32,000 nt of DNA from Planctopirus limnophila DSM 3776 (GTDB lineage: Bacteria; Planctomycetota; Planctomycetia; Planctomycetales; Planctomycetaceae): the NCBI RefSeq assembly GCF_000092105.1, contig NC_014148.1, forward strand, positions 4,020,001-4,052,000, written 5' to 3'. A program made the position numbers and the translations under genes. The notes below the pieces were generated by a model. That model saw only the letters and a program-made list of their open reading frames with translations, was not told the origin of the DNA and did no database searches. How positions within the stretch are numbered: the first letter of the stretch is position 1; the number at the start of each line of letters is the position of its first letter. Of this stretch, positions 4,518 through 32,000 are shown in pieces.

Positions 4518-4728
4518 GACAATCCCATCCCGACAAGATCTGTCCGATGACTCGGCGAGCCCCCGAATCATGAAGACCTGATGAACTCATTTTCAAATTG
4601 TGATCAAGACCAACGGGTCAGTACAGAAAAAAGCATCTCGAGCGCGCACATTTCAGAAAGTGCTCGTCCATCTCATCAAGGAACGGGAGAGAGATCGACC
4701 CACATGTCAGATACCGAGCCACGACTCC

Positions 4729-10689: not shown

Positions 10690-11010
10690 GATTACGCACC
10701 TTCGCCAGCACACGCGTCGCCCGACATCATCTGCGGGACATTGTTCACTTTGCCGACTGATTCTACTCACTCCCATCGTTGATCAACAGCCACTCATCGT
10801 CGCCCCTTGCCAACAAAACTGTGAACTTATCATCTGGCGAACTGACCTTTTTCACAGTATTGTCCATGTGGAATTGTCCATGCAGTATTGTCCACGCAGT
10901 ATCTTCATCCAGAGGCCGCCACGCACTCACCTGTTTTCGTGTTTGCAATTCCTTGCCACGCAGTCATCCCTCCGCATTTACGCTCAATACTTGCCCACCC
11001 GGAAATACTG

Positions 11011-15210: not shown

Positions 15211-16464
15211 TCAGGCGACCACGGGTTGGGCAGCCATTTCCTCGAGCATTGAATCGACTTTATCGAGTGTTAGATCCAGTTCAGCGCGGAAGAGATCGCC
15301 CATCAGCAGATCCGTAATATCGTCCTTGGTTTCCGGATACTTCATGATCAGCTTGCCAAAGTTCATACCCTTATAATAGGCCAGCACCAGCTTTCTCATC
15401 CGCTCCATGCCTAGCACATACTCGGGCTCCCAGGCACCGAGTGTCGTACGGGTTAAATCATTGGTGACCAAGCCCTGATGGACGGCATCAGCCGCCAGTT
15501 CACCCGATTTCACGGCCAGCAACACACCGGAAGAATAGAGCGGATCGAGAAAACCATAGGCATCACCAATCAGCACCCACCCCTGCCCTGCTGCCTGCTT
15601 TGCCCGATAGGAATATTCCTTGGCAGCCCGATACTGATCACATCGCTCGGCACCCTCCAATCGAACTTTCACACCCGGGCAGTGATCCACCTCTTCCTGG
15701 AAGAGTTCTCCCAGGTCTTTTGTGCGCTGCTTGTTAAAAAGATGCGAGAAATCTGCGACAACACCCACACTGGTAATGTTGTCGTGCAGCGGGATGTACC
15801 AGAACCAGCCTTTCTTACCTTCTGTCTGAATGACAGAGGTTGCACCGCCATTCTCACCCTCATCTCGCCAGGCATTTTTGTAGTAGGTCCAGACGGCGGC
15901 TTTTTTCAGTTCGCTATCCCATGTCCTCAATTGCAGGCGATCGAGCAGCACTGAGCTTTGGCCACTCCCATCAATCACCACCTGGGCTCGCACCTGACGC
16001 TCTTCACCGGTCGCCTCATTTTTGACGCGTACTCCCACGCATCGATCGTCTTCAAAGATCGCTTCCAGCACACGATGATTCTCATGAACCTGCACGCCCG
16101 CCTCGCGAGCGTGATCCAGCAGCATCAGATCAAAATCGGCTCTGCGCACCTGCCATGTCTGCGAAGATTCGACGGGCTTGTACTGTGTAAAGAAAAATGG
16201 AGCCGAGACTTTGCCCGTATCACTCACAAACTGCACGCTGTATTTCTTAACGAAGTGGCTGTCTTTCAGTCGCTCGAGCAGCCCCGTGCGTGCAAAAACT
16301 CCATAGGTGCAGGGAATCAGCGATTCCCCGATATGGAATCGCGGAAAAACTTCCCGCTCGAACAACTGCACGCGATGACCAGCCTGCGCCAGAAGTGTCG
16401 CCGCTGTTGCACCCGCCGGGCCACCACCAATCACAATCACTTCAGGATCAAGGCTCTGGATCAT
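15211..16464 (-). CDS. FAD-dependent oxidoreductase of the flavin-dependent halogenase type (PltA/CmlS/PrnA-like signatures)
   Basis: 417-aa ORF with ATG at 16464. Signatures seen: GxGxxG (VIGGGPAG), FPRFHIGESLIP, Lys73/Lys74 in FVKKYSVQF, an exact WxWxIP motif (GWFWYIPL) and GDAYGFLDPLYSSGV. Confidence 0.75.
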   Translation of the reverse strand: MIQSLDPEVIVIGGGPAGATAATLLAQAGHRVQLFEREVFPRFHIGESLIPCTYGVFARTGLLERLKDSHFVKKYSVQFVSDTGKVSAPFFFTQYKPVESSQTWQVRRADFDLMLLDHAREAGVQVHENHRVLEAIFEDDRCVGVRVKNEATGEERQVRAQVVIDGSGQSSVLLDRLQLRTWDSELKKAAVWTYYKNAWRDEGENGGATSVIQTEGKKGWFWYIPLHDNITSVGVVADFSHLFNKQRTKDLGELFQEEVDHCPGVKVRLEGAERCDQYRAAKEYSYRAKQAAGQGWVLIGDAYGFLDPLYSSGVLLAVKSGELAADAVHQGLVTNDLTRTTLGAWEPEYVLGMERMRKLVLAYYKGMNFGKLIMKYPETKDDITDLLMGDLFRAELDLTLDKVDSMLEEMAAQPVVA

Positions 16465-19640: not shown

Positions 19641-20930
19641 TTACGCCTTATACTCCGAGAAAATCAGCGAAACGTTCTGACCACCAAATCCAAAGCTGTT
19701 CGACAACGCCCGGCGAACTTTCCGCTCACGAGCAGCATTCGGAATGTAATCCAGATCACAATCGGGATCAGGAGTGGTGTAGTTAATCGTCGGTGGTACC
19801 ACACCATCGCGAATCGACAGCAGGCAGGTAATTGCCTCCACACTCCCGGCGGCAGCAATCAAATGACCCATCATGCTCTTAATGCTCGAAACCGGGATCT
19901 TGTAGGACTGCTCACCAAAGGTCTGCTTAATGGCCAGCGTCTCGACCTTGTCATTCACTTCAGTGCTGGTGCCGTGAGCATTAATGTAGTCAATCTCATC
20001 GGTATTCAGCCCGGCATCCTGCAATGCCATCTTCATGCAGGCAATGGCTCCCCGCCCTTCTGGATGAATATCTGTAATCCGGTAGGCATCGGCCGTTGAA
20101 CCATAACCCACGACTTCACCGTAGATGTGGGCCCCACGCTTCTTGGCATGTTCCAGTTCTTCCAGAATCAGAATGCCGGCACCTTCGCCCAGCACGAATC
20201 CATCACGATCCTTATCAAACGGCCGCGAAGCTGTCTGTGGGCTGCTGTTGCGAGTCGAAAGAGCTGTCAGCAGGTTAAAGCCGGTCACTCCAAAGGGATG
20301 GATCATGCTGTGAGCACCACCCGAAATCATCGCATCGGCATCACCCCGGCGGATAATTTCTGTCGCTTCACCAATCGCCTGGCTCGAAGCAGCACATGCC
20401 GTCAGGCAATTCAGATTCGGCCCCTGAGCATTAAACACCGCAGCCAGATGTCCGGCTGTCATGTTCGGCTCCTGCTCCATTTCTTTCTGGGGATGCATGC
20501 GGGCCAATCCTTCCCGCGTAAAGACTTCCAGATCGACTTCTCCCGTCGCGGTGTTCTGGGCCTGAGCAATAATGCTCATGATCATCAGAAAATCCTGCTG
20601 CCCTTCGCCGGCACCCAGGTAAACTCCCAGACGACCCGGATCGAGATCACTGTCCGATAAACCCGAATCATCGTAAGCCTGTCGGGCTGCACCCAGTGCG
20701 TAATGAATGTTCTTGCCGCTGAACTGGAACGGCGTCGTGTCAGCAACATAATTTTCGAGCTTGAAGCCCTTCACTTCACCAGCAAAAGTCGTCGGGAATC
20801 GACTGGCATCGAAATGCGTAATCGTGCTGATGCCGCACTTGGCTTCCTGCTGGGCCTTCCACATCTCCTCAATCGAGTTACCAATGGGAGTAATGGCACC
20901 AATACCTGTAATGACTACTCGACGTCGCAT
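19641..20930 (-). CDS. fabF: Beta-ketoacyl-ACP synthase II
   Basis: ATG at 20930 (MRRRVVITGIGAITPIG) is preceded by GAGG. The Cys-His-His triad contexts are present: NCLTACAASSQAIG, INAHGTSTEVND, KSMMGHLIAAAG. Confidence 0.9.
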   Translation of the reverse strand: MRRRVVITGIGAITPIGNSIEEMWKAQQEAKCGISTITHFDASRFPTTFAGEVKGFKLENYVADTTPFQFSGKNIHYALGAARQAYDDSGLSDSDLDPGRLGVYLGAGEGQQDFLMIMSIIAQAQNTATGEVDLEVFTREGLARMHPQKEMEQEPNMTAGHLAAVFNAQGPNLNCLTACAASSQAIGEATEIIRRGDADAMISGGAHSMIHPFGVTGFNLLTALSTRNSSPQTASRPFDKDRDGFVLGEGAGILILEELEHAKKRGAHIYGEVVGYGSTADAYRITDIHPEGRGAIACMKMALQDAGLNTDEIDYINAHGTSTEVNDKVETLAIKQTFGEQSYKIPVSSIKSMMGHLIAAAGSVEAITCLLSIRDGVVPPTINYTTPDPDCDLDYIPNAARERKVRRALSNSFGFGGQNVSLIFSEYKA

Positions 20931-21145
20931 ATCGAAAACCTCAGGTGAACTTATCTGCCAGCAAGCTGACAAAACGATCCATTCAAATTTTATGGAGACT
21001 CTTAAGTGTCATACGCAATCGTCGAGTCTGCTGTTGATGCCAGCTTGTCATCTCGGGTGACTGGCAATATCTGGTCACTGGTGAAATGAAAAGTTCGATT
21101 CACAACGCTGGGTTCACCAGAAACTTACGCCACAGGCCCGGAACC

Positions 21146-21634
21146 TCACGCTACAGGCAAAGTGGGGTCACCCGTCTTCCCCACGTCCAGTATTCCGCGC
21201 AAGAGTTCAAAAACAAAACTTTTCTGATCCACACGCACACTGCCGCTCTGCTCGGAATTCACATGTGCAAACAGAATCTCGCCTTCGGCCACCAGTCGAT
21301 CACCGACTTTGGCAGTCGCGGAAACCATGCCACCTTCGGCATTCGCTTCTTCAAGAGTCGTCCGGTAAGTCAGCGTCTCACCAGGCGTGACGTAGCTGTG
21401 GAAGGTCATTCGCGGCACTTTGGCCAGAACAACCACCTTCGAAAACTGATGAGATTCTCCCAGCAGAATGCCACCCGTCTGCGCCAGACCCTCGAGGATC
21501 AACGAGTGAGGCATGACCGGGAAACCCGGAAAGTGATCGTGGAGATGCTCCTCCGCCAGACTCACATTCTTGATCGAAACAGCTTGCTTGCCGCTTTCAA
21601 ACTCGACAAAGCGATCAACCCACATCCAACGCAT
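21146..21634 (-). CDS. FabZ/FabA-like hotdog-fold 3-hydroxyacyl-ACP dehydratase (copy 2)
   Basis: ATG at 21634 (MRWMWVDRFVEFESG) aligns with the N-terminus of the paralog at 23815 (MRFQLIDRITSL). Active-site context: HDHFPGFPVMPHSLILEGLAQTGG (His and Glu present). An alternative TTG start lies at 21676. Confidence 0.8.
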   Translation of the reverse strand: MRWMWVDRFVEFESGKQAVSIKNVSLAEEHLHDHFPGFPVMPHSLILEGLAQTGGILLGESHQFSKVVVLAKVPRMTFHSYVTPGETLTYRTTLEEANAEGGMVSATAKVGDRLVAEGEILFAHVNSEQSGSVRVDQKSFVFELLRGILDVGKTGDPTLPVA

Positions 21635-21810
21635 GGCAATCTCGAGAAACGAATAGGGGAAGCTACGACAAGGCAAAGCCCCTTCCGCATGCGAGAAGCT
21701 CCCCAGCCATGCATGCGGAAGGTGTTGCTGTTCGTTCCCATGACCCTCGGAACTCTCACCGGAATCGATCAGACGACATCCGATCGACTACGAGAGATCA
21801 ACTCCGAAAA

Positions 21811-22197
21811 TCAGGACAATTTACTCTCAAGAAAATTCACGATCATCTTCACTGTCAGAAGATCGGTCAGCTTCTCAACCTTAGGATCCTTGGCAAATGA
21901 GTCAATATCTGCGTGTGGCATTTTGGCTTTCAACTCAGCCACACCGGCGGGAGTCAAGACACCATTGGCCACGAAGTTCGGATCAGCGGCTGTCACGTTC
22001 TCGGGCAAAAGTTCCGATCGGGGAATCTTGATCCCGAAAGCCTTCTCCAGCCGGAACAGAATGTCGAGAATATCAATCGACTCGGCACCCAGATCGCCAA
22101 ACAGCGTCGAAGATTCTTTCACTTCGTCGTCATCAACTCCCAGGGCGTCGCACAGCGTTTCCCGGACCTTTTCGAAAATCTCATCGCGCGATGGCAT
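21811..22197 (-). CDS. Acyl carrier protein, atypically long (128 aa)
   Basis: ATG at 22197 is preceded by a strong AAGGAG. The phosphopantetheine site context is FGDLGAESIDILDILFRLEKAFGI (Ser40; Glu replaces the usual Asp). About 40-45 extra residues lie between helix II/III and the terminal helix TVKMIVNFLESKL. The in-frame TTG extension to 22395 is Cys/Arg-rich and looks non-coding. Confidence 0.8.
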   Translation of the reverse strand: MPSRDEIFEKVRETLCDALGVDDDEVKESSTLFGDLGAESIDILDILFRLEKAFGIKIPRSELLPENVTAADPNFVANGVLTPAGVAELKAKMPHADIDSFAKDPKVEKLTDLLTVKMIVNFLESKLS

Positions 22198-22395
22198 CCA
22201 CTCACTCCTTGAGCAGCACGTTACGAGTTGACTTCTCTCGAACAATACCGCTTGTCGCGTCCGTATCTTGCAGTCGCTCACAGATCTTGGCATTTCGGAC
22301 GGACTTCTGCCAGATCGAACCCACGTCAGCGCTGCTGAAAACTTATCTTCAACACCCCTCGAAACTATCGTCAAGGAGCAACACCAACCCCGCAA

Positions 22396-23151
22396 TCAAC
22401 CCATACCACCCAGAGTCAAGCCGCCATCAACCTTCAAAGTTTGACCTGTAATATAACTGGCTTCATTCGAAACCAGAAAATGAACGGCGAAGGCAATATC
22501 GTCTGGTTGACCCAACCTCTTGCAGGGAATCGCTTTTTTAATCGTTTCACCGGCTGCGTTCACCACAGCCACCGTCATATCAGTCTCAATGAACCCAGGC
22601 GCCACGCAGTTCACAGTCACATTCCGCTTCGCCAGCTCAACAGCCATACACCGGCTGAACCCCTCAATGCCGGCCTTGCTGGCAGCATAATTGGCCTGAC
22701 CTGGATTCGAAAAATCTGCGGAAACGCTCGACATGTTCACAATCCGACCATACCGGGCCGACATCATCGGTCGCGTCACTGCCTGGCAGAAATTGAACAC
22801 GCTGGTCAGATTCGTATCAATCACCGCCTGCCACTGTTCAATTGTCATTGTGGCCAGCAGTCCATCTCGAATAATGCCGGCATTGTTGACGAGGATGTCA
22901 ACCTTACCCCACTTCTCGATCACCTGTTCAACCACCTGATCACAAGCCGCTTTGTTGGCCACATCACACTTCAAAGCCCAGCTTTCATGACCTGAAGCCT
23001 CTAACTCCTCGACAATCGCCAAAGCTGGAGCCTCACTCGACTGATACACAAAGGCCACCTTGGCTCCGGCGCGGGCCAGCTTCAGCACAATCGCCTTACC
23101 AATCCCTCGGCTGCCACCTGTCACCAGTGCGACGCGTCCAGTCAAATCCAT
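22396..23151 (-). CDS. fabG: 3-oxoacyl-ACP reductase (SDR family)
   Basis: 251-aa ORF with ATG at 23151 preceded by GAGGAA. Motifs: TGGSRGIGKAI, NNAGI, and a Ser...YAASKAG catalytic triad context. Confidence 0.9.
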   Translation of the reverse strand: MDLTGRVALVTGGSRGIGKAIVLKLARAGAKVAFVYQSSEAPALAIVEELEASGHESWALKCDVANKAACDQVVEQVIEKWGKVDILVNNAGIIRDGLLATMTIEQWQAVIDTNLTSVFNFCQAVTRPMMSARYGRIVNMSSVSADFSNPGQANYAASKAGIEGFSRCMAVELAKRNVTVNCVAPGFIETDMTVAVVNAAGETIKKAIPCKRLGQPDDIAFAVHFLVSNEASYITGQTLKVDGGLTLGGMG

Positions 23152-23311
23152 GCTTCATTCCTCGTCTTAAGTTCTTCAATCTGCAGCCGTACAATGCGAT
23201 GCAGATCGATCAATTGATTTTCAGAGTGCTCAAGCCTATTGGATGCCTCAGATTCACTGAGTCGCTTTTTCCAGTCACAACTGCACGGCAATTCAATCCT
23301 GCGAATTCAAC

Positions 23312-23815
23312 TCACGACGCCAACTCCTGCCCGGCAGGAGCTGCAGACCACAACGTGGGAAACAATTGTCTTAACCACACGATTCGAGCCTCATCACTGG
23401 CTCGCGCCGAAGGATCACGATCTGCCACATTAAACTGTGTCAGCACAATTCGGGCACTGACTGCCGATTCCTGCGTGCTGGCCAGCACGCCAGACCCGGC
23501 AAACTCCCAATGCTGTGGACCGATCTTTTTCACCTTCATCGAAAGCTGCAGTTGATCGCCCGGTGCCACAAACGCATTGTATTTCAGAGCCCTGGTTTCC
23601 TTCAGCAGAATCGTGCTGCAAGAAAAGTCGGTACTGGCACGCATCAGCCACGCGCCGGTCTGAGTCAATGCCTCCAGCATGAAAACCCCAGGCAGCACCG
23701 GAAAACCCGGAAAATGATCCGCCAGGTATTCCTCGGCAATACTCACGTTCTTGACCGCCGTAATCGACTCGTTGGGCACGAGACTCGTAATGCGATCAAT
23801 CAACTGAAAACGCAT
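23312..23815 (-). CDS. FabZ/FabA-like hotdog-fold 3-hydroxyacyl-ACP dehydratase (copy 1)
   Basis: 167-aa ORF with ATG at 23815. Active-site context: ADHFPGFPVLPGVFMLEALTQTGAWL (His and Glu). It lacks the PHRYPFLLVD N-terminal motif of housekeeping FabZ. Confidence 0.8.
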   Translation of the reverse strand: MRFQLIDRITSLVPNESITAVKNVSIAEEYLADHFPGFPVLPGVFMLEALTQTGAWLMRASTDFSCSTILLKETRALKYNAFVAPGDQLQLSMKVKKIGPQHWEFAGSGVLASTQESAVSARIVLTQFNVADRDPSARASDEARIVWLRQLFPTLWSAAPAGQELAS

Positions 23816-24146
23816 AGTGTTTCATTATCCGGGGATGGTTGATAACAGAACGACTTCTCCGGCCACTCGATGCTGCACCACTTGCTTGCAGATTCGAGCT
23901 CAGTATCCCCACAGATTTCCTGGAGATCACCCGAGTTGTAAAGCCAGCAAAACCAGCATGATAGGGTCTGAGCAACTCTGCCTCAACCCTTCTCGCCACA
24001 AAATATGAACACATGTTCACGCACCTGCAAGATCTGCGAACTCTCGACCTTCGACGCCCGAGGATGCGACTCTGGGTTGCCATGACCTGACAGATGATCA
24101 CCAAACGGCCCGTAAGCCGCGTGACCCGGGACAAAAGTCCTCGCTT

Positions 24147-25670
24147 TCAAGCCATAAACCGTGACCCCATCGCCAACCACATCAGTGCAGCACTCACCAG
24201 AATCACCACACCCAAACTGCTCCACGGAACGGATCTGGCTCCAATCGGCAACCCGGTAAAGACCAGTACTAGCCACCGAAAAAAGCCCACCCAGACCAAT
24301 AAACTCGAAGTCAGCACCAAAATAGCTCCAGGCAAAAGCGACAGTGAACCCAGTTCCACACGATCATCGGGCCCTATGCTCACCTGCCAGAGCGACAACA
24401 ATGGCTGTGTGTCAATCAGCCAGCCGGGCCAGGGGCTACTCAACAGGAACAGACATACGCCGCCGGTGACTGCCAGCACCCCACTGGGGCAAACGGAAAA
24501 CAGGCCTTCCCACTCTTCAACATACTGCAACCGACGACCAGTGCGGAATGCCTCACCCACCCCCCATACCATCAGTCCATAGCCCAGCACCAGCACTGTC
24601 AGTTGCCGGGACATACCCTCCCAACGTTCCACTTGAGCCTCGACCGGGACCTGCTCCAGCAAACATAACGACCAGACCCACCAACCCGTCCCGGCCATCA
24701 AAATCGTGGCCACCCATCGACTCCACTCCTCCTGCTTCAAAATCATCAAACCCGCTGCCAAGGCTGTCCAACCTCCGATCAGCGACCAGGCCAGCGCCTC
24801 CATCGAGACTGGCAGAGCATCGGCTGCGATTCCGGGCGTATTTCTCGGCGCCAACCAGCTCAGCACCCAGAGTCCGCACAGCCAGCGAACGAGTTGATGG
24901 CCGCTGAGCACTCCGTGGAGGGATCTCCTGGCGGTCTCGCCAACATTCGGTGAGAGTCTGCATGGGCTCAACATCGCTGCCAGATCCAGCCACAGAAAAT
25001 GACCAGGGATCAGGCAGAGCCTTCCAGCACAACCGGCCACCATCAGTACCCAGCCTACCTGCCCCCAAGACTCTCCCTGCCAGCCTGCGACGGGGTTTGA
25101 CATCGACGTCAATCGGCTCTCCTGCTGATTCATGAGCAGCAACCAACCCGTCCAGACAAAGACCGCCGTCGTGCCCTGCCATAACATCAACATGCCTTTG
25201 AGCCGACTTTGAATCGCCACACGACGGGATTGATCTTCAGCAGCCTCGCAGCGAATGAATTTCAACGAAGTGAGCTGAATCAACTCCCACGCCAGCAAAG
25301 CCCCGGCCAGATGCGGCGCGCTCAGCATCACGACTCCCAGCCCCATCGTCAGCAGGAGCCACCAATCCCAGGCATCTATCTCGTCAGTATCTGTGGCTTT
25401 GAACCAATACGAAAGAGCACTGGCACCCAATACCAAGCCACTACCGGCTGTAAGGCAGATCAAGATCCCCTTCGTGAGCGGGTGGGGCATTGCTGCCTGG
25501 CTCCACACTCCGGGCCAGCCTTGAGCTCCCTGACTCACTACTCCTGCCAGCCACGCCAGCAAAGAGAAAGGCCAGCGCCTGGCCTCTGGAAAAACCAGAA
25601 TTCCGACCATCGCCAGGACAATCCACACTCCTCCCGCCAGATTCCAGTTCATCGTGACAGGAAATGTCAT
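24147..25670 (-). CDS. Diverged antiporter-like (NuoN/NuoM/MrpD-type) polytopic membrane protein
   Basis: Long hydrophobic ORF. The start is ATG 25670 or GTG 25703. Residual motifs: LLAWELIQLTS, GRLCLIPGHFLWLD (cf. K..PFH.W.PD), ILKQEEWSRWVA (cf. Q.D.KR.LAYS). About 7% Trp by hand count. Confidence 0.6.
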   Translation of the reverse strand: MTFPVTMNWNLAGGVWIVLAMVGILVFPEARRWPFSLLAWLAGVVSQGAQGWPGVWSQAAMPHPLTKGILICLTAGSGLVLGASALSYWFKATDTDEIDAWDWWLLLTMGLGVVMLSAPHLAGALLAWELIQLTSLKFIRCEAAEDQSRRVAIQSRLKGMLMLWQGTTAVFVWTGWLLLMNQQESRLTSMSNPVAGWQGESWGQVGWVLMVAGCAGRLCLIPGHFLWLDLAAMLSPCRLSPNVGETARRSLHGVLSGHQLVRWLCGLWVLSWLAPRNTPGIAADALPVSMEALAWSLIGGWTALAAGLMILKQEEWSRWVATILMAGTGWWVWSLCLLEQVPVEAQVERWEGMSRQLTVLVLGYGLMVWGVGEAFRTGRRLQYVEEWEGLFSVCPSGVLAVTGGVCLFLLSSPWPGWLIDTQPLLSLWQVSIGPDDRVELGSLSLLPGAILVLTSSLLVWVGFFRWLVLVFTGLPIGARSVPWSSLGVVILVSAALMWLAMGSRFMA

Positions 25671-25721
25671 TCGCCCTCTTCTCTCAACAAAACCCACAAT
25701 CACTTAAAGCAGGTTCATCCA

Positions 25722-27344
25722 TCAACACTCGATCAGCCAGATCAATCCCACGCTGGTTAATGCCGCCATCGTCATCGCTAAGAAGGTCCCCAGCGACAAA
25801 TCATTGACTCGATCGACACGGATTGCTTGTGGTTGACCCAGGTTGATCCCCTTCGCTTCCAGTTCTGGTAAAGCCGGGATTCTTGCCCTTCCCCAGAGCA
25901 GCTTCAACACCAGATTCAGCAGCGTCGAAATCAGAATCATCCAGCTCACCAACACACCAGCTACCCACCATGTGGACTCATTCATCAGTAAACCAGACAG
26001 TTGCCACATCCCCACACCGATTGCTCCCGGAACTCCCCCAGCCAGCAACCAACCGGCGACCCCCAGCATCTGCGACCAGCGCGGAATTTTTTGCGATAAC
26101 CCACCCCAGGCATCCAGTTCCCGGCCCACATACTGCCTCTCCAGATGGTGCAGGAGCAACAGCATGACAGCCCCGCTCAACAGCGAACCCAGCACCAGGA
26201 GAGCTGCCACATCACCGACAGTATCACCACCCGCCCCAATACATCGGGCAACCATTCCCAATTGCTGCACTGCCAGCACTGTATAGCCCACAATCTTCCG
26301 CAGATCACTCTGAGAAATCGCCAGACACGCCATCCAGAGAGCACCACACAAAGCCACACCACCCCACCAACCCGGCAATCCCTGCCCATGACCGGCAAAT
26401 AAAGGGACCAGCACAGTCGATACATACCAGAGGCTGCTCATCGCCAACCCGCTGGTCAGTAAGATGGTGAGTGGCAAAGATTGACCTGTAACCAGCGATC
26501 CCCACCAGCCATGCATCGGGAATAATCCGGCACGAATCCAGAGGCCCAGCCCTAATAGAAACAGAACCATGCCCGAAGTTGTCGACCACACTCGCGATGA
26601 CATTTCATTCTGCTGACTCCACAGCGCGATCTGGCTGATCAGTTCACTCCAGCGATACTCCGCCGGTGGTGCCACTGGCACAAGATCAGCCTTCAGCGGA
26701 GAAGAAATCGCCGACAGCAGCAGCATCGCGAGCATCAGGCATACACTCGCCACCCCCTGCCAGATCAACGTCGCTGTCAGTTCACTCTTCGACTCTCTTC
26801 CGGAAACAGCCACAGCCCGACCGGCTGAATCGTTACGAGCCACCTTATGCTCGATCATCAACCCCCACAGCCCCACCAGCCAGCCCACATCGAAAGAGAA
26901 CAGACTCCATCTCCAGTCCGTGGCCAGCCAGCTCCCGGTCCAGCATGTCTGCACAAAAAAAATCACCAGCCAGCGGTCTTCATAAAAATCATCGCCCCTC
27001 TCCCACTTCGGTAGAGAACGCTGCTTCGAAAAAATCTTCTCCGTCGAGCTGATCAAAGCCACCAGCAACGACAGCACAAAGACCATCAGCCAGGAGAAAT
27101 CATCGCTCGATATCAAACGGCTCAACTCGCCAGAGCCACTGAACCCAGAACCATGCCACCACGGAGCCCACAGCAATGCCACAAACCACAGACTCACGTT
27201 GAACCACGGGAGCAGAGGCAATATACACCGCACACCCCCTGCTGAGGCTGGCCAGACCTTTGTTACCAGCAGGATAAGTATCCCCACAAGTGGCAGCAGG
27301 CTGGCTAAAAGTGCCATCAGCAATAGCCATTCTGGCACGATCAT
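25722..27344 (-). CDS. Diverged antiporter-like (NuoM/NuoN/MrpD-type) polytopic membrane protein
   Basis: 540-aa ORF with ATG at 27344. Residual motifs: IRAGLFPMHGWWGSLVTGQSLPLTILL (cf. K..PFH.WLPDA..GAPTP.S) and AISQSDLRKIVGYTVLAVQQLG (cf. Q.D.KR.LAYSS..H.G). Confidence 0.65.
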   Translation of the reverse strand: MIVPEWLLLMALLASLLPLVGILILLVTKVWPASAGGVRCILPLLPWFNVSLWFVALLWAPWWHGSGFSGSGELSRLISSDDFSWLMVFVLSLLVALISSTEKIFSKQRSLPKWERGDDFYEDRWLVIFFVQTCWTGSWLATDWRWSLFSFDVGWLVGLWGLMIEHKVARNDSAGRAVAVSGRESKSELTATLIWQGVASVCLMLAMLLLSAISSPLKADLVPVAPPAEYRWSELISQIALWSQQNEMSSRVWSTTSGMVLFLLGLGLWIRAGLFPMHGWWGSLVTGQSLPLTILLTSGLAMSSLWYVSTVLVPLFAGHGQGLPGWWGGVALCGALWMACLAISQSDLRKIVGYTVLAVQQLGMVARCIGAGGDTVGDVAALLVLGSLLSGAVMLLLLHHLERQYVGRELDAWGGLSQKIPRWSQMLGVAGWLLAGGVPGAIGVGMWQLSGLLMNESTWWVAGVLVSWMILISTLLNLVLKLLWGRARIPALPELEAKGINLGQPQAIRVDRVNDLSLGTFLAMTMAALTSVGLIWLIEC

Positions 27345-27383
27345 TCCTTTGTCACAGCAGGTGGCAGCCAGCAGTCCTCAAAC

Positions 27384-29660
27384 TCAACGTCTCACAAACA
27401 ATAGCAGCCATAAACTGGCAGTCAGCACCAGCATGGTCATGTAAAGCGACAGTTGGCCAGTGTGCAACCCTCTGAGCCACATTCCAGCCTGTACTCCCAG
27501 CGAGCCGACCCGTTGCCAGCAACCATCAATGACCAACCAATCACCCAGTCGCACCAGTTGGGCGATCCCTCGCACCGGGAGATGGATTCCCCAGAAGAAC
27601 AACTTCTCCACCAGCAGATGGTCTCGCCCCAGTTCCAGAAATGGCTTCATGATCTCTCCGCAGGTTCGCCATGCGAGCTTAGGGACGGTTCCGCTTCCTA
27701 AAAGGATGGCCAGTAGACCCCCTGTCAGTACCGTGCTCGCAATCAGCAGATGTCCCACACGCCACGGAACTTGACCGTGTTCGATGAAGGAGAGGAAGAA
27801 TTCCCCAGGGACTGCGAGCAAAATGTAAACCCCCATCAGGAAACAGCTCGCCACGAAAAGGGCCCATCCTCCAGAACTTGACCCACGCTCAACCTCTCGG
27901 GTGGCAGGCCACAGGAGACCCATTGTCAGCCACAGCATGCCCAGCAGGATTGCCATTTGCTGCCAGAGCTTGACTCCTTCCAGATCGATGGGCAGCCAGG
28001 CCAGACTCAACCACCCCACGCCCATCCACCATCGATTCTGTCCAACGGGACTGATCAGCCACCATGCTCCCAGCACCCAGCCTGACAGCCACGAATATCG
28101 AGACCACACTTCACTCCAGTCGATCTCCGTGAATGATAAATCGGCGACACCTCCCTCACCCGCCTGACCAGCCAGTTGAAAAAACTGAAAAACTGCCAGG
28201 CTCAACAAAGTGGCAAGCAACAAAGTGCATCGACCAGAATCGGACCACTGCTCGTTCCAGCCAGCGTTTTTCCAACCAGCGCTATTCTGAGGCCCCTGAA
28301 TTCCACTGAGATTCTGTTCAAGCACTCCGGCCCGACCCGGCACACGATCAATTCTGGCTTCATCCGCAGGTACAGCCAGCACTCTTCCAGAAAGAAACAT
28401 CCAGCCGCACAAAACCACCGATATCGAACTAAGTTGTGATGCCAACTCCCGCCCCGCTGAACCTCCCGCCAGCGAAGCCTGAGCCATCAAAGGCCAGCTG
28501 CGCTCCAGCAGCAACACACCCGCACCAGCACTCAACACAGCCACTGCCAATGCCAGTCGGGAAGGGGCTCGTTCCGCCACCTTGGTCCCACGTTCCCCTG
28601 CAGGCAATTCCGCGATCGCCCCGGCAGACAACATCGCCGGAAACAAAAACAGCTTCGGTAAACACCCCAAAAACCAGCAGAGAATTCCCATCTCCAGCAG
28701 CCCAAACTCATAACTCCCCGGCAGCGCGACCTTCACCCTCTCCAGATCTTCAAACCCATGAATGCGAAATCCCTGCACCAGCAGCATGGCAGCGACCAGC
28801 AGCAGCAAATCTCCCGGCAACTGATGCAATAGCCATCTCTGCAGCGAGATCAGCACTCGTGGAATCGATGTGGTTCGATCTCCCCATGCGAACTGATAGA
28901 GCAACACAGCCAAGGTGATCAGATGGGCTCCCACAATCAGCAACACCAGCGGGCTGGCCATCGCCAGCAGCACCAGCCCCAGCAAACCGACGGAAACACC
29001 CAGGGCAGCCATCTTGCCAGGAATCTCTCCGGCGACGGCTGTCGGAACCTGTGCCATGTCGGCACTGGCTGCATTCTCAGAACGGGTCAGGCCCCGGTAT
29101 CGAGCCCCATGCTCTCCGATCATCAATGCCAGGCCTACTCCACAAAGTATGGCCAGAATCGCCATTCGAAGAGGGCTGATTTCCAGAAATCTGACTGCGT
29201 GACTGGAGTTGCCGTCTTCAATCCTCACTTCTCCAGATTCGACCATCGGCAAGACGCGAGAAACCACCCTCCAGACTTCGTTCGAAATCTCTAGAGAAGT
29301 CTCATTGGCAGCAATGAATTGAGCTGGATTTCGGTCCCATCCACCCTCCCACACGGCACTCGCCAGAGCCAGCACACCGGTGATGAACCAGACCAGCAGA
29401 CTTCCCCTCCAGACCCAACTCAGGCTGTAAGACACGTCCCCCTCAGAAGTCGCGTGCTGTGTCACCTGCTGGAAGCCTGGAGCCAGCACGTCCCCACCGT
29501 TTTCCACGCGCAGAGTCATTTCCTCACGCCGCTGCAGACGGCGATTGGCAGAAATCGTCGGCTTCGCAGGCAACAACGCCAGCATGACTACCCAACAGAG
29601 GGGAATCGCCAGCAGAGTGAGACAGATCATCCCTGAAATCGACGGCACGACCACTGACAA
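27384..29660 (-). CDS. Diverged NuoL/MrpA-like polytopic membrane protein (~750 aa)
   Basis: The ORF opens with TTG 29660, just after AGGAGGGG. GTG 29654 and ATG 29630 are alternative starts. Residual motifs: LPKLFLFPAML...APSRLALAVAVLSAGAGVLLLER (cf. K.[32 protein letters not shown]..R). The C-terminal LGDWLVIDGCWQRVGSL..WLRGLHTGQLSLYMTMLVL resembles the NuoL C-terminal element. Confidence 0.65.
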   Translation of the reverse strand: MSVVVPSISGMICLTLLAIPLCWVVMLALLPAKPTISANRRLQRREEMTLRVENGGDVLAPGFQQVTQHATSEGDVSYSLSWVWRGSLLVWFITGVLALASAVWEGGWDRNPAQFIAANETSLEISNEVWRVVSRVLPMVESGEVRIEDGNSSHAVRFLEISPLRMAILAILCGVGLALMIGEHGARYRGLTRSENAASADMAQVPTAVAGEIPGKMAALGVSVGLLGLVLLAMASPLVLLIVGAHLITLAVLLYQFAWGDRTTSIPRVLISLQRWLLHQLPGDLLLLVAAMLLVQGFRIHGFEDLERVKVALPGSYEFGLLEMGILCWFLGCLPKLFLFPAMLSAGAIAELPAGERGTKVAERAPSRLALAVAVLSAGAGVLLLERSWPLMAQASLAGGSAGRELASQLSSISVVLCGWMFLSGRVLAVPADEARIDRVPGRAGVLEQNLSGIQGPQNSAGWKNAGWNEQWSDSGRCTLLLATLLSLAVFQFFQLAGQAGEGGVADLSFTEIDWSEVWSRYSWLSGWVLGAWWLISPVGQNRWWMGVGWLSLAWLPIDLEGVKLWQQMAILLGMLWLTMGLLWPATREVERGSSSGGWALFVASCFLMGVYILLAVPGEFFLSFIEHGQVPWRVGHLLIASTVLTGGLLAILLGSGTVPKLAWRTCGEIMKPFLELGRDHLLVEKLFFWGIHLPVRGIAQLVRLGDWLVIDGCWQRVGSLGVQAGMWLRGLHTGQLSLYMTMLVLTASLWLLLFVRR

Positions 29661-29684
29661 TCCCCTCCTGTCCGGAAACCGGGC

Positions 29685-30056
29685 CTACTGGAACGCAGCT
29701 CGATCAGCCAGCCGAGCGGCTCCTTCCTGAGCCACTGACTCTTCGTACTGTAAAGCCTGCTGCTGGTATAGGCCGCGATCAGTTTCTTCGGGTTCTGCGG
29801 AGGTTCCTGCGAGCTGATCCCCAGGGGATACTTTCGAAACACTCCAAGCCCGCAGGATCATCAGCCAACCCAGACACAGCAAAACGCCCGACAGGAGCCC
29901 CCTCCCATCCGGATGGGCCGCAGGCCGGCTGAGCATCAGGATTGTCATTCCCAGAAATGCCACCGCGAGACTGCTGACCTGCTCTGAAAATCTTCCAGCC
30001 AACCCACGGGAAAGTCCCACACAAATCATGACCAGACCGGCACTTCCCATCAGCAT
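29685..30056 (-). CDS. Small membrane protein (123 aa, 2-3 TM helices plus acidic/Gln-rich tail) in the NuoK position
   Basis: ATG at 30056 is preceded by GGAGGAG at ~6-nt spacing. It overlaps the upstream stop as ATGCTGA. The longer frame to 30152 would overlap the upstream gene by ~100 nt. Hydrophobic segments: MLMGSAGLVMICVGLSRGLAG, VSSLAVAFLGMTILML, LLSGVLLCLGWLMILRAW. Confidence 0.55.
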   Translation of the reverse strand: MLMGSAGLVMICVGLSRGLAGRFSEQVSSLAVAFLGMTILMLSRPAAHPDGRGLLSGVLLCLGWLMILRAWSVSKVSPGDQLAGTSAEPEETDRGLYQQQALQYEESVAQEGAARLADRAAFQ

Positions 30057-30784
30057 GGCAACTCCTCCGCCTCGGCCATCCCTGCCGAAGATCGCCCGGA
30101 CTTCCAGACAATGCCCACTCCAATCATCAGGAGTAACAGCCCGGCTGGCCATTCTTCATCCATGCGAAACCCGCTCTGTTCGATAGCGGGCGAATTTTCA
30201 TGCATACGACCATCTGCCGAAATCATGAGGGCCGAAAACAACAGGATCGCTGCCGCCAGAGCACTGATCGTCATACGAAATCGCACCAGAATCGCAGGAG
30301 ATTTCACTAGGTTCATTGAGCCCTGGGCAACTGCCGATGGAGCGTGCGATGCAACCGGAAAAAACTGCGGAGTGTTAGCAGAGACGATGTACAGCACCAT
30401 CGTACCTGCCAAAGCCATCACTCCACTTTCCCAAACTTTTCCTTCCAGAAGTGTCCCTAAGGCGGCACAGATCATTCCCCCCGCCAGAAACAACAAACTG
30501 ACGATTCTCGATCGAGGGGAGGCACAGCGATACGTCGCCCACGCACCCACCAGTGCCACAGTGGCGAACCAGCACAGATCAGCCGGGCGGGAAATCTCGA
30601 ATGTGGAGCTTTGACCTTTAGTCAGCTCCCAAAGTATGGCCATAAGTCCCATGACGACGACCACACATCCCAGAGAACTCACCACCAGCCGACGTGACCA
30701 ACTGGCAGCTCCCCACGCCAGCCCGACGACCACTGGCCAGAAGAGCTCGACTTGTTCCGTGATGTTCAAAGCCAACGAGATCAT
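30050..30784 (-). CDS. Polytopic membrane protein (244 aa) in the NuoJ position
   Basis: ATG at 30784. There are about 6-7 hydrophobic helices. The segment SRIVSLLFLAGGMICAALGTLLEGKVWESGVMALAGTMVLYIV loosely resembles the NuoJ core (..saL.L...f...A.l.llL.a.FlA..q..VYaGAimVLf). This is a weak assignment. Confidence 0.5.
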   Translation of the reverse strand: MISLALNITEQVELFWPVVVGLAWGAASWSRRLVVSSLGCVVVVMGLMAILWELTKGQSSTFEISRPADLCWFATVALVGAWATYRCASPRSRIVSLLFLAGGMICAALGTLLEGKVWESGVMALAGTMVLYIVSANTPQFFPVASHAPSAVAQGSMNLVKSPAILVRFRMTISALAAAILLFSALMISADGRMHENSPAIEQSGFRMDEEWPAGLLLLMIGVGIVWKSGRSSAGMAEAEELPC

Positions 30785-30908
30785 CTTTCCGCCCGGACTT
30801 CTTTCGAAAGAACCTGATTCCGTTTACCCAGTCTTTTCCAGACTGTGATCTCGATCTGAGAAAAAACCATCGCGCACTCTCTGCAACAAATTCACCCTGA
30901 TAAAAAAC

Positions 30909-31778
30909 TCAGAGGGGCCCTTCAGGAGCAGGCCCACCGCGCCGCCAGGCTTCTGCGGCTTGAGCACACGCTGCGATTCTTTGCCGGACGAGTTCAATCA
31001 GTTCGGCATCCTGTTGCTTGCTGTAAGCGGCAATCTCCTCGGGCAGAATGGGCTTCCCAAAGACGACACGCACCCGCCGGGGACGCAACATCAGTTTGCC
31101 TCGTGGCAGAGCGAGATTGGCTCCCGCAATCCCTGCAGGATAAACAGGGACTTTCCCGCGTCGCATCAGGGCCAGAAAACCTGGTTTCAGTGGCCCCATT
31201 TCTCCATCGACCGATCGTGTCCCCTCAGGAAAAATTCCCACTAGAAACCCCTGTTCGAGACGGTGCTGCATTTCCCTCAGGCTTCCCGCACGAGCCGCAT
31301 CTCGATCAATCGGCACCACATAAACCTTCCTTAAGAAGGCTCCCAGAAACCGCTTTTCAAACAAGGTGCTGCGCGCCAGATAGGTGACGGGCCGACTAAA
31401 CGCCAGTGGTAACAGCAAAGGATCGAGCATGCTCTGATGATTGCTCAAGATCAGCCCACCCTCTAAGTTATTGAACTGCTCCGATCCACTCACCCGGTAA
31501 CCCATCCAGGGGTAGAACACCATTCGGAAGACCATCTGGCAATAAAACCAGACCCGATGCCGCTGAACTCCAAGCGGCAACCCGGGAGGTGGAACAGGTT
31601 GTGGTTCAGCAACTTGTTGGCATGGCGCAGAAACAGCCGCCGGTTCGTTCGCCCCCGCTGCTACAGAGGCTGCTGGCTCATGATTGACCACATCGTTAGG
31701 AGTGGTCGAGGGAAGACCGGTATTGTCCACGCTCACGTCTTTCTTCGTCGATTCTGGCAAATAAACTAGGCTGGCCAT
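30909..31778 (-). CDS. 1-acyl-sn-glycerol-3-phosphate (lysophospholipid) acyltransferase family protein (PlsC-like)
   Basis: Motifs seen: HX4D (LSNHQSMLDP), VTYLARSTLF, and FPEGTRS (GIFPEGTRSVDG). The start is ATG 31778 or GTG 31811. The N-terminal ~90 aa are Pro/Ala/Val-rich and precede a hydrophobic segment. Confidence 0.8.
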   Translation of the reverse strand: MASLVYLPESTKKDVSVDNTGLPSTTPNDVVNHEPAASVAAGANEPAAVSAPCQQVAEPQPVPPPGLPLGVQRHRVWFYCQMVFRMVFYPWMGYRVSGSEQFNNLEGGLILSNHQSMLDPLLLPLAFSRPVTYLARSTLFEKRFLGAFLRKVYVVPIDRDAARAGSLREMQHRLEQGFLVGIFPEGTRSVDGEMGPLKPGFLALMRRGKVPVYPAGIAGANLALPRGKLMLRPRRVRVVFGKPILPEEIAAYSKQQDAELIELVRQRIAACAQAAEAWRRGGPAPEGPL

Positions 31779-32000
31779 CAATCTCAAGTGGAAAACATGC
31801 TGTCCAACCACCGAGAATCAATTCGCCAGAACAGTAACAGAACTCGGGTTGTGTCGAAATCCCTTTGGATTCATAGTCTCAGGACAACGGCATTCATTTC
31901 TCGCAGGCAGAATTGGCAATTCCCACTGGCCCGGCAATCATGCTCTATTCACCCATCGAATCGCAGCCATCGAACTTCAAGAGGCAGACCGGTATGTCTT

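What the first reader, a model, noticed from the sequence alone, without database searches (positions are those of the whole stretch)
24147..30784. Stand-alone, strongly diverged nuoJ-K-L-M-N-like membrane module with no peripheral-arm genes
Five consecutive minus-strand genes encode only polytopic membrane proteins of 244, 123, ~750, 540 and ~510 aa. That is the size order of NuoJ, K, L, M and N. By eye, the three large proteins keep degraded antiporter-like (PF00361-type) signatures. The 540-aa protein has IRAGLFPMHGWW (cf. K..PFH.WLPDA) and AISQSDLRKIVGYTVL (cf. Q.D.KR.LAYSS). The ~510-aa protein has LLAWELIQLTS, GRLCLIPGHFLWLD and ILKQEEWSRWVA. The ~750-aa protein has LPKLFLFPAML...APSRLALAVAVLSAGAGVLLLER and a C-terminus, LGDWLVIDGCWQRVGSL...LRGLHTGQLSLYMTMLVL, like the NuoL/Nqo12 D..IDG.VN...LR.LQTG...Y element. 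Canonical Lys/His positions are substituted (K->R, H->M or absent). The genes are tightly packed, with a 7-nt ATGCTGA overlap and gaps of 18-54 nt. The flanks are lipid-metabolism genes, not nuoA-I. This looks like a repurposed, probably redox-uncoupled paralog of the complex I / Mrp membrane arm rather than respiratory complex I.
Basis: partly seen in the sequence, partly recalled or inferred. Interest (0 to 1): 0.8.

Follow-up and report, generated by a model that had tools for sequence, protein, structure and literature searches.

The report
Cryptic third complex-I membrane-arm paralog
Planctopirus limnophila has two ordinary complex I gene sets elsewhere and, here, a stand-alone, fast-evolving five-gene membrane module whose three large proteins are very diverged copies of the proton-pumping subunits NuoL, NuoM and NuoN that have lost most of the pumping residues.

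Summary
Five tightly packed minus-strand genes (Plim_3129 to Plim_3125 of Planctopirus limnophila DSM 3776) encode only polytopic membrane proteins.

Homology to NuoL/M/N:
- The 540-aa protein is NuoM-like (hhalign E 1e-16; its ortholog passes Pfam PF00361).
- The 507-aa protein is NuoN-like, with moderate support (E 1e-4 to 1e-3, colinear over more than 350 columns).
- The 756/758-aa protein has a NuoL-type C-terminus, with a lateral amphipathic helix and a last TM (E 1.5e-10 to a NuoL fragment). Its core is weakly antiporter-like (E 5e-5).
- The two small proteins match NuoJ, NuoK or anything else in no test. Only their position and TM number fit.

The TM7 Lys is Arg in both the M-like and N-like proteins. 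The TM8 and TM12 charges are gone.

No nuoA-I genes lie within 10 kb. The genome has two canonical, essential nuoJKLMN sets elsewhere.

The family is confined to Planctopirus-like Planctomycetaceae. It evolves about 10-20 times faster than its FAS-II neighbours but stays under purifying selection (dN/dS 0.23-0.34).

Most likely it is a redox-uncoupled, non-pumping derivative of the complex I distal arm, kept for its architecture. Its function is unknown, and the link to lipid genes is unproven. Both structure predictions failed.

The parts
30050..30784 (-). Gene 1 (Plim_3129), 244 aa. About 6 TM segments. It sits in the nuoJ position but has no detectable family.
   Evidence: ORF. Hydropathy. 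Conserved in all orthologous loci, 38% identical in L001. No hit in Pfam, NCBIfam, PDB or hhalign. dN/dS 0.23.
29685..30056 (-). Gene 2 (Plim_3128), 123 aa. Three TM segments plus a roughly 50-aa acidic tail. Its start overlaps the stop of gene 1 (ATGCTGA). It sits in the nuoK position, but no homology is detectable and there are no TM glutamates.
   Evidence: No hit. dN/dS 0.34.
27384..29660 (-). Gene 3 (Plim_3127), 758 aa (annotated as 756 aa from the GTG at 29654). NuoL-like, with about 15-16 TM segments. The N-terminal 210 residues are variable. The core is weakly antiporter-like, with His246 at the TM5 Glu position and Lys336 at the TM7 Lys position.
   Evidence: hhalign of the core against an extended antiporter profile: probability 68%, E 4.7e-5, against 0.41 for the reversed control. 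Register shown. Identity to Plim_3127.
27387..27692 (-). C-terminal element of gene 3 (residues about 657-758). A roughly 78-residue amphipathic segment followed by a terminal TM, matching the NuoL lateral helix HL plus TM16. This is the best-conserved part of the protein.
   Evidence: Exhaustive search of 1.84 billion proteins hits the NuoL fragment P0027 at E 6.6e-4. P0027 matches TIGR01974 at 1e-34. hhalign probability 96.9%, E 1.5e-10. The top PDB hits are the C-termini of NdhF 6hum_F and Nqo12 4he8_L. Hydrophobic moment. 54% identity to L001, against 41% for the whole protein.
25722..27344 (-). Gene 4 (Plim_3126), 540 aa. NuoM-like antiporter-type subunit. TM7 Lys is Arg271, TM8 Lys is Met302, TM12 Glu is Met446, and Asp152 lies at or near the TM5 Glu position.
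   Evidence: TIGR01972 E 1.6e-8. PDB NdhD 6tjv_D 6.9e-12. hhalign against a NuoM profile: probability 98.8%, E 1.3e-16, better than against N or L. The L001 ortholog passes the PF00361 gathering score. Residues.
24147..25670 (-). Gene 5 (Plim_3125), 507 aa (the ORF extends to a GTG at 25703). NuoN-like antiporter-type subunit. The TM5 Glu129 is retained, TM7 Lys is Arg217, and the TM12 Lys is Leu427.
   Evidence: hhalign against NuoL P0018: E 6e-5. Against a NuoN profile: E 1e-3, colinear 13-414 to 12-387. Against an L/M/N profile: probability 57%, E 1e-4, with the reversed control at 0.4. All non-family hits listed (E 0.1-0.2) carry PF00361. Residues.

Best explanation
This is a cryptic third copy of the distal membrane arm of respiratory complex I. 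It arose by en-bloc duplication of a nuo(JK)LMN segment in an ancestor of Planctopirus-like Planctomycetaceae and has since diverged very fast.

Shown:
- Genes 3, 4 and 5 are homologs of NuoL, NuoM and NuoN, in that order.
- Gene 3 keeps the NuoL-specific lateral helix and last TM, which in complex I clamp L, M and N together.
- The block has no Q-module, N-module, NuoH or NuoA partner nearby.
- The genome has two canonical, essential nuoJKLMN sets elsewhere.
- The proton-relay residues are dismantled. TM7 Lys is Arg in the M-like and N-like proteins. The TM8 and TM12 Lys/Glu are hydrophobic or not conserved. Gene 3 keeps only the TM7 Lys.
- The genes are intact and under purifying selection, but evolve about 10-20 times faster than their neighbours.

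Inferred:
- The five proteins assemble into an L-M-N-type elongated membrane complex held together by the lateral helix.
- The TM5 acid and TM7 Arg form fixed salt bridges rather than proton-transfer pairs. The complex therefore no longer pumps protons by the canonical mechanism and is not driven by quinone chemistry.
- What selection keeps is the architecture (a scaffold or an altered, non-canonical transport role), not the pump.
- The two small proteins are either the unrecognisable descendants of NuoJ and NuoK or recruited unrelated subunits.
For: Homology:
- D540.
- E507.
- C758 C-terminus.
- C758 core.
- Each large protein is closest to its positional counterpart (M better than N or L for gene 4, N better than L or M for gene 5, an L-only C-terminus for gene 3). 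This points to an en-bloc origin from nuo rather than from mrp.

Stand-alone status. Two canonical essential sets elsewhere: PMC10632474 supplement.

Residue losses: they are conserved in both lineages, while all 16 canonical L/M/N sequences keep the TM5 Glu, the TM7 Lys and the TM12 Lys/Glu. The role of these residues in proton translocation is established knowledge (PMC9271201).

Selection: dN/dS 0.23-0.34, against 0.005-0.054 for the FAS genes and TruD. The module is 35-41% identical to L001, while the flanks are 77-95% identical. The C-terminal clamp is the best-conserved part of gene 3.

Rarity: only 6 hits in 1.84 billion representative proteins. Three loci were found in the genome and metagenome scans.
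Against: - No structure could be obtained. Both AF2 models were unusable (pLDDT 32 and 39), so the fold, the assembly and the position of the substituted residues in the membrane are inferred from alignments only.
- Support for gene 5 and for the core of gene 3 is moderate (E 1e-3 to 5e-5 from shallow profiles).
- The two small proteins have no demonstrated relation to NuoJ or NuoK.
- Arg and His substitutions do not exclude some other ion or substrate pathway.
- No expression, essentiality or interaction data for Plim_3125-3129 were found.
Confidence: 0.6

Rival explanations
1. It is an active, stand-alone secondary transporter (an Mrp-like cation/proton antiporter, or a carrier of another ion or substrate) that uses a non-canonical set of polar residues.
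For: Antiporter-like subunits work without a redox module in Mrp. The TM5 acid is retained in genes 4 and 5, the TM7 Lys in gene 3, and the TM7 His in genes 4 and 5. The genes are under purifying selection.
Against: The TM8 and TM12 charges, invariant in all 16 canonical sequences, are hydrophobic in both the M-like and N-like proteins. The TM7 Lys is replaced by non-titratable Arg. There is no similarity to MrpB, C, E, F or G, and no MrpA-type C-terminal domain. The fast evolution is atypical of a tuned ion pathway.
Confidence: 0.2
2. It is an alternative distal arm that docks onto the NuoH/NuoA/Q-module of one of the two canonical complexes I. That would give a low-stoichiometry or non-pumping isoform, in the way cyanobacterial NDH-1 swaps NdhD and NdhF variants.
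For: The gene order mirrors nuoJKLMN. The genome already keeps two canonical sets, which shows a tendency to multiply this module.
Against: The NuoJ and NuoK positions show no homology, and the E-channel glutamates are absent. The interface subunit would have to fit a slowly evolving partner while itself evolving 10-20 times faster. No peripheral-arm genes are co-located.
Confidence: 0.1
3. It is a decaying duplicate with no remaining function.
For: dN/dS is 5-20 times higher than in the neighbours. Catalytic residues are lost. The distribution is very narrow.
Against: All five ORFs are intact and colinear in lineages that have diverged to 35-41% identity. dN/dS is well below 1 in every gene. 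Islands such as the C-terminal clamp and the TM7 P.H.W motif stay conserved.
Confidence: 0.07

Closest known systems
Distal membrane arm of respiratory complex I (NuoL, NuoM, NuoN; Nqo12-14; ND5, ND4, ND2), preceded by NuoJ and NuoK
   Same: Gene order is small, small, L-like, M-like, N-like. The M-like and N-like proteins align over TM5-TM12 with the P.H.W (TM7) and Q.D.(K)R motifs. The L-like protein ends with a lateral amphipathic helix plus one TM, as NuoL does.
   Different: There are no nuoA-I genes. Scores lie far below the NCBIfam family cut-offs (33.7 bits against 263.8). TM7 Lys is Arg, and the TM8 and TM12 charges are lost. There is no detectable NuoJ or NuoK homology. The module evolves 10-20 times faster than its neighbouring genes. 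The distribution is restricted to one clade.
Mrp (CPA3) multisubunit cation/proton antiporter
   Same: It is a stand-alone, redox-independent membrane complex built from antiporter-like subunits plus small TM subunits. MrpD-type models are weak hits of gene 4 (TIGR00944, 2.5e-7).
   Different: Mrp has two antiporter-like subunits, not three. MrpA continues beyond the lateral helix and TM16 into an MrpB-like domain (from general knowledge, not tested here). Mrp keeps the Lys and Glu relay. No match to MrpB, C, E, F or G was found. Gene 4 scores better with NuoM than with MrpD.
Accessory uses of antiporter-like subunits: cyanobacterial NdhD3/F3-CupA and DabB-DabA / MpsAB CO2-uptake modules
   Same: These are PF00361 proteins detached from, or swapped within, complex I and put to another use.
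   Different: Those systems come with a soluble partner (CupA, or DabA/MpsB), and from general knowledge they keep the charged relay residues. No such partner gene lies here, where the neighbours are acyltransferase and FAS-II genes.

Membership tests
Antiporter-like subunits (Pfam PF00361 Proton_antipo_M) | Significant match to the family profile | tested here: met
   Gene 4: the L001 ortholog scores 43.9 bits against a gathering score of 21.5. The window protein gives E 1.3e-16 by hhalign and 6.9e-12 to NdhD in the PDB. Gene 5: E 1e-4 to 6e-5 by hhalign, with reversed controls at 0.4. Gene 3 core: E 4.7e-5. The window proteins themselves give no Pfam hit.
Antiporter-like subunits (Pfam PF00361 Proton_antipo_M) | Conserved charged relay: TM5 Glu, TM7 Lys, TM8 Lys/His, TM12 Lys/Glu | tested here: not met
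   In a 25-sequence alignment, TM7 is Arg in genes 4 and 5. TM8 is Met/Leu in gene 4 and Arg/Ala in gene 5. TM12 is Met/Ile/Leu in gene 4 and Leu/Ala in gene 5. The TM5 Glu is kept only in gene 5, with Asp152 in gene 4. Gene 3 has His246, Lys336 and Val373 at the TM5, TM7 and TM8 positions, from a weak alignment.
Antiporter-like subunits (Pfam PF00361 Proton_antipo_M) | 14-TM core fold with broken helices TM7 and TM12 | tested here: inconclusive
   The AF2 models had pLDDT 32 and 39. Foldseek's top hit was E. coli NuoN, but with TM-score 0.2 and E 0.1. Hydropathy gives about 14-16 TM segments.
NuoL / NdhF / Nqo12 (TIGR01974) | C-terminal extension: a long lateral amphipathic helix followed by TM16 at the very C-terminus | tested here: met
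NuoL / NdhF / Nqo12 (TIGR01974) | Score above the curated family cut-off, and the N-terminal PF00662 domain | tested here: not met
   No NCBIfam or Pfam hit at E up to 10 for gene 3 or its L001 ortholog.
NuoM (TIGR01972) | Score above the curated cut-off (263.8 bits) | tested here: not met
   33.7 bits.
NuoJ (PF00499) | Profile similarity of the 244-aa protein to NuoJ | tested here: not met
   No hit in Pfam, NCBIfam or the PDB profile search. hhalign against a 4-sequence NuoJ profile gives E 0.25.
NuoK (PF00420) | Profile similarity, three TM segments, and glutamates in TM2 and TM3 | tested here: not met
   Three TM segments are present. hhalign gives E 0.46 and there is no PDB or Pfam hit. 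No acidic residue lies in any TM segment.
Respiratory complex I operon (nuoA-N) | Co-location with nuoA-I, that is the Q-module, the N-module, NuoH and NuoA | tested here: not met
   None within 10 kb on either side in L001 or L002. Canonical sets lie at Plim_0266-0271 and Plim_3864-3870.
Mrp antiporter (CPA3) | MrpA with a C-terminal MrpB-like domain, MrpC, and MrpE/F/G small subunits | tested here: not met
   Gene 3 ends at the TM16 equivalent. The small proteins hit no Mrp chain in the PDB.

The most novel reading that the evidence does not exclude
This is a natural 'dead pump'. The L-M-N arm of complex I, clamp helix included, has been kept after losing its proton relay because the elongated, membrane-embedded architecture is itself useful. 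It could act as a scaffold or membrane-organising complex, possibly working with the co-oriented, similarly fast-evolving PlsC-type acyltransferase next to it and with the adjacent fatty-acid synthesis genes. That would be the first non-bioenergetic role for this ancient module.
Probability: 0.25. Interest if true: 0.8.

Novelty: new variant of a known kind. Interest (0 to 1): 0.55.

Why it matters
Antiporter-like subunits are known as ion-translocating parts of complex I, of membrane-bound hydrogenases, of Mrp and of CO2-uptake systems.

Here a complete L-M-N set stands alone. It keeps the NuoL clamp helix but has replaced the invariant TM7 Lys by Arg and deleted the TM8 and TM12 charges, and it is still maintained by selection. 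That makes it a natural mutagenesis experiment on which features of the arm are structural and which are catalytic. It is also a candidate for a non-bioenergetic use of the module.

It further shows that standard annotation (Pfam, NCBIfam, paralog clustering) misses such copies. All five genes are 'hypothetical proteins', and they were not grouped with the two canonical nuo sets.

The limits are a very narrow distribution (one genus-level clade) and an unknown function. It may turn out to be a lineage-specific curiosity.

Tried and rejected
- Direct Pfam and NCBIfam scans of the five window proteins: only gene 4 gave sub-threshold NuoM/MrpD hits.
- Full-length PDB profile searches for genes 1, 2, 3 and 5, and for the core of gene 3: nothing relevant.
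- hhalign among the three large proteins: no signal with these shallow profiles.
- AF2 of gene 3 with 4 near-identical sequences: pLDDT 32.
- AF2 of gene 5 with 12 sequences including canonical PF00361 proteins: pLDDT 39. Foldseek on that model put E. coli NuoN first, but at TM-score 0.2, so I do not use it.
- Orthologs from the fetched loci could not be handed to AF2 or to the exhaustive search.
- Genome and metagenome scans found only three more loci, all Planctopirus-like.
- Anti-phage defence models (PADLOC): none.
- Rfam: none.
- Repeats: nothing beyond short chance matches.
- Promoter-like and terminator-like sites: no more than expected by chance.
- Literature: no paper names Plim_3124-3129. 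The TraDIS supplement as stored does not contain Plim_3125-3130. A proteomics supplement has none of them either.
- Aryl-polyene-type cluster: considered because of the ApeI-like Pfam hits in the flanks. Rejected as an explanation because FabF and FabG pass the housekeeping equivalog cut-offs and are 98-99% conserved.
- Horizontal transfer as the cause of the divergence: considered and rejected. dS is similar in the module and its flanks, and the rate ratio is the same at both divergence depths.
Full report
**Where the window comes from**

The 758-aa and 507-aa products are identical to Plim_3127 and Plim_3125 of Planctopirus limnophila DSM 3776. A published table gives Plim_3124 coordinates of 4043312-4043815, which match the FabZ-like gene at window positions 23312-23815. 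The window is therefore genome positions 4020001-4052000. The five genes are Plim_3129 to Plim_3125, and in the source names seen here the three large ones are 'hypothetical proteins'.

**The observation**

There are five consecutive minus-strand ORFs at 30050-30784, 29685-30056, 27384-29660, 25722-27344 and 24147-25670.

- The start of gene 2 overlaps the stop of gene 1 in ATGCTGA, with a GGAGG box upstream.
- The longer 155-aa and 518-aa reading frames are not conserved in orthologs.
- All five products are polytopic by hydropathy: about 6, 3, 15-16, about 14 and about 13-14 TM segments.
- Upstream lies a PlsC-type acyltransferase. Downstream lie FabZ-like, FabG, a 128-aa ACP, FabZ-like and FabF, then a cyclophilin and TruD.

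So the description and the coordinates are correct.

**Related loci**

The family is extremely rare.

- A word-indexed search of 5.8 billion proteins found only four relatives of gene 4.
- An exhaustive HMMER search of 1.84 billion representatives with gene 3 found six hits. Four belong to the family itself.
- Scans of 185,579 species genomes and of JGI metagenomes found three loci.

The loci are a 'Planctomyces sp.' MAG (about 90% identical), P. hydrillae (about 85%), one metagenome contig (about 85%) and a Logan contig, L001. In L001 all five genes are present in the same order but are only 35-41% identical. A member of the L001-type cluster is annotated 'Planctomyces sp.'.

**Homology of the three large proteins**

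Gene 4 (540 aa) is NuoM-like.
- TIGR01972 (NuoM) gives E 1.6e-8, followed by a series of NuoM, MrpD, NuoN and HyfF models. All are far below the family cut-offs.
- Its family profile hits NdhD, NuoM and ND4 chains in the PDB, down to E 6.9e-12.
- The L001 ortholog passes the Pfam PF00361 gathering score.
- hhalign against a small NuoM/MrpD profile gives probability 98.8% and E 1.3e-16. That is better than against NuoN (2e-6) or NuoL (6e-6).

Gene 5 (507 aa) is NuoN-like, with moderate support.
- There are no direct hits.
- In the 5.8-billion-protein database, all six non-family hits listed for its family profile are NuoL-type PF00361 proteins, at E 0.1-0.2. Five of the six share one length and score.
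- hhalign gives E 6e-5 against one of these hits.
- hhalign gives E 1e-3 against a NuoN profile, colinear over 355 columns (13-414 against 12-387).
- hhalign gives E 1e-4 against a combined L/M/N profile.
- The controls are clean: unrelated complex I membrane subunits give E 0.09-0.5, and the reversed sequence gives E 0.4.

Gene 3 (758 aa) is NuoL-like, mainly through its C-terminus.
- The whole protein gives nothing.
- Its last roughly 100 residues, searched alone, put NdhF (6hum_F) and Nqo12 (4he8_L) first in the PDB, and a chloroplast NdhF (7eu3_F) fifth. Each match lies at the extreme C-terminus of the subject.
- The exhaustive search recovered a 227-aa fragment, P0027, at E 6.6e-4 for the whole library.
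- P0027 is a bona fide NuoL C-terminus (TIGR01974, E 1e-34).
- P0027 aligns to the gene 3 C-terminus with hhalign probability 96.9% and E 1.5e-10.
- Residues about 657-735 are amphipathic, at least as much as the HL helix of E. coli NuoL, and they are followed by a terminal TM.
- The core (residues about 223-388) aligns to TM5-TM8 of an extended antiporter profile at E 4.7e-5. The reversed control gives 0.41.

Each protein is thus closest to the subunit whose position it occupies. That argues for en-bloc descent from nuoLMN rather than from mrp.

**The two small proteins**

No test relates the 244-aa and 123-aa proteins to NuoJ, to NuoK, or to any Mrp, MBH or NDH small subunit. The tests were Pfam, NCBIfam, PDB profiles and hhalign against small NuoJ and NuoK profiles.

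Gene 2 has three TM segments, as NuoK does, but no acidic residue in any of them. Given the evolutionary rate described below, descent from NuoJ and NuoK is possible but not shown.

**Key residues**

I aligned 16 canonical L/M/N sequences with the gene 4 and gene 5 families using MAFFT (an independent 12-sequence alignment is). The canonical sequences are invariant for the TM5 Glu, the TM7 Lys and a charged TM12 residue. The role of this pattern in proton translocation is established (PMC9271201).

| Position | Gene 4 (M-like) | Gene 5 (N-like) |
|---|---|---|
| TM5 Glu | Asp152 at or near the position | Glu129 |
| TM7 Lys | Arg271 | Arg217 |
| TM7 His | His278 | His224 |
| TM8 Lys | Met302 (Leu in L001) | Arg249 (Ala in L001) |
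| TM11 His | Ser387 (Ala in L001) | Leu, Met or Phe |
| TM12 Glu/Lys | Met446 (Ile or Leu in orthologs) | Leu427 (Ala in L001) |

The TM7 Arg is present in every ortholog of both families. In gene 3, a weak alignment puts His246, Lys336, Met343 and Val373 at the TM5 Glu, TM7 Lys, TM7 His and TM8 His positions.

**Stand-alone status**

No nuoA-I genes lie within 10 kb on either side in L001 or L002. The upstream neighbours are the acyltransferase and a divergent exbB-exbD pair.

The TraDIS study of P. limnophila lists two canonical sets: Plim_0266-0271 and Plim_3864-3870 (NuoH, J, K, L, M, N, with NuoI at Plim_3865). They are grouped pairwise as paralogs, and all are scored essential (PMC10632474 supplement). 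The listed nuo paralog groups are pairs of the two canonical sets only, so Plim_3125-3129 were not grouped with them.

**Evolutionary rate**

Against P. hydrillae, dS is similar across the region (0.07-0.31), but dN/dS differs sharply:
- the five genes: 0.23-0.34;
- the acyltransferase: 0.21;
- FabZ-like, FabG, ACP, FabF, the cyclophilin and TruD: 0.005-0.067.

Against L001, the flanking proteins are 77-95% identical while the five proteins are 35-41% identical. The module has therefore evolved about 10-20 times faster than its neighbours at both divergence depths. That fits vertical descent with relaxed constraint, and it explains how a lineage-restricted duplicate can look so remote.

The module is not decaying. 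All ORFs are intact in every lineage, and islands remain conserved: the C-terminal clamp (54% identity), the TM7 P.H.W motif and the Q.D motif.

**Mechanism**

Shown: the proteins are L-, M- and N-like, a NuoL-type clamp is present, no redox module is nearby, the relay is dismantled, and selection is purifying but relaxed.

Inferred: the proteins assemble like the distal arm of complex I. The acid-Arg pairs are structural salt bridges. The complex neither pumps protons canonically nor couples to quinone chemistry. Selection is acting on the architecture or on some non-canonical activity.

The neighbouring lipid genes are suggestive, but they are shared only within a clade whose flanks are 77-95% identical. 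FabF and FabG also look like housekeeping genes. The association is therefore weak evidence.

The rivals are an active Mrp-like transporter, an alternative arm for canonical complex I, and a functionless remnant. They are weighed in the report sections.

**What failed**

Both structure predictions were unusable, so fold and assembly rest on sequence evidence alone. No expression or essentiality data for these five genes could be retrieved.

**Verdict**

This is a real, unannotated and strongly diverged third paralog of the complex I distal membrane arm. It is a new variant of a known kind. It is interesting as a natural 'dead-pump' experiment and as a case of annotation blindness, but its distribution is narrow and its function is unknown.

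Noticed in passing
window 30909-31811 (-), Plim_3130: A PlsC/LPLAT-type acyltransferase lies directly upstream of the module in the same orientation. It shares the module's raised dN/dS (0.21, against 0.005-0.07 for the other neighbours). It is 78% identical to its L001 counterpart, and its N-terminal roughly 85 residues do not align at all. It may belong functionally with the five genes.
   Followed up: partly
window 19641-23815 (-), Plim_3120-3124 region: This is a FAS-II block: FabZ-like, FabG, a 128-aa ACP, FabZ-like and FabF. In the ACP, the phosphopantetheine-binding match covers only about the first 62 residues, leaving a C-terminal extension of about 60 aa. Both dehydratases score below the FabZ equivalog cut-off, and their orthologs in L001 and L002 carry ApeI-like Pfam hits. 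All are 98-99% identical to their P. hydrillae counterparts. Plim_3124 is scored 'unclear' for essentiality in TraDIS.
   Followed up: partly
window 15211-16464 (-): A flavin-dependent halogenase-like protein. Its best NCBIfam model is CmlS (E 5e-71, far below the cut-off), and it has Trp_halogenase Pfam hits. It is conserved next to the NUDIX and TruD genes in L001 and L002.
   Followed up: no
window 10888-13884 (+), 2724-4571 (-), 9113-10279 (-), 13892-14965 (-): Four large ORFs of 998, 615, 388 and 357 aa have no Pfam hit at E up to 1e-4. The last three also have no NCBIfam hit at E up to 1e-5. They were not examined further.
   Followed up: no
window 24001-31000: The + strand has a strong positive AT skew (0.11-0.30) and a negative GC skew (down to -0.30) across the module, more than in the flanks. 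This may simply reflect minus-strand genes rich in hydrophobic codons, which was not tested. GC content is only slightly higher than in the neighbours, 0.55-0.58 against 0.51-0.55.
   Followed up: no
beyond the window: L002 317-1714, L001 3498-5491: A divergently oriented exbB-exbD (MotA/TolQ-type proton channel) pair sits directly upstream of the acyltransferase in both lineages. These are Plim_3131 and Plim_3133 in P. limnophila.
   Followed up: no
P0026 (125-aa protein from a 1.1-kb Logan contig): A short protein or fragment matches the C-terminal clamp region of gene 3 (E 2.7e-6) better than the canonical NuoL fragment does. It gives only weak NdhF hits. It may come from a further, more distant member of this diverged family.
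   Followed up: partly
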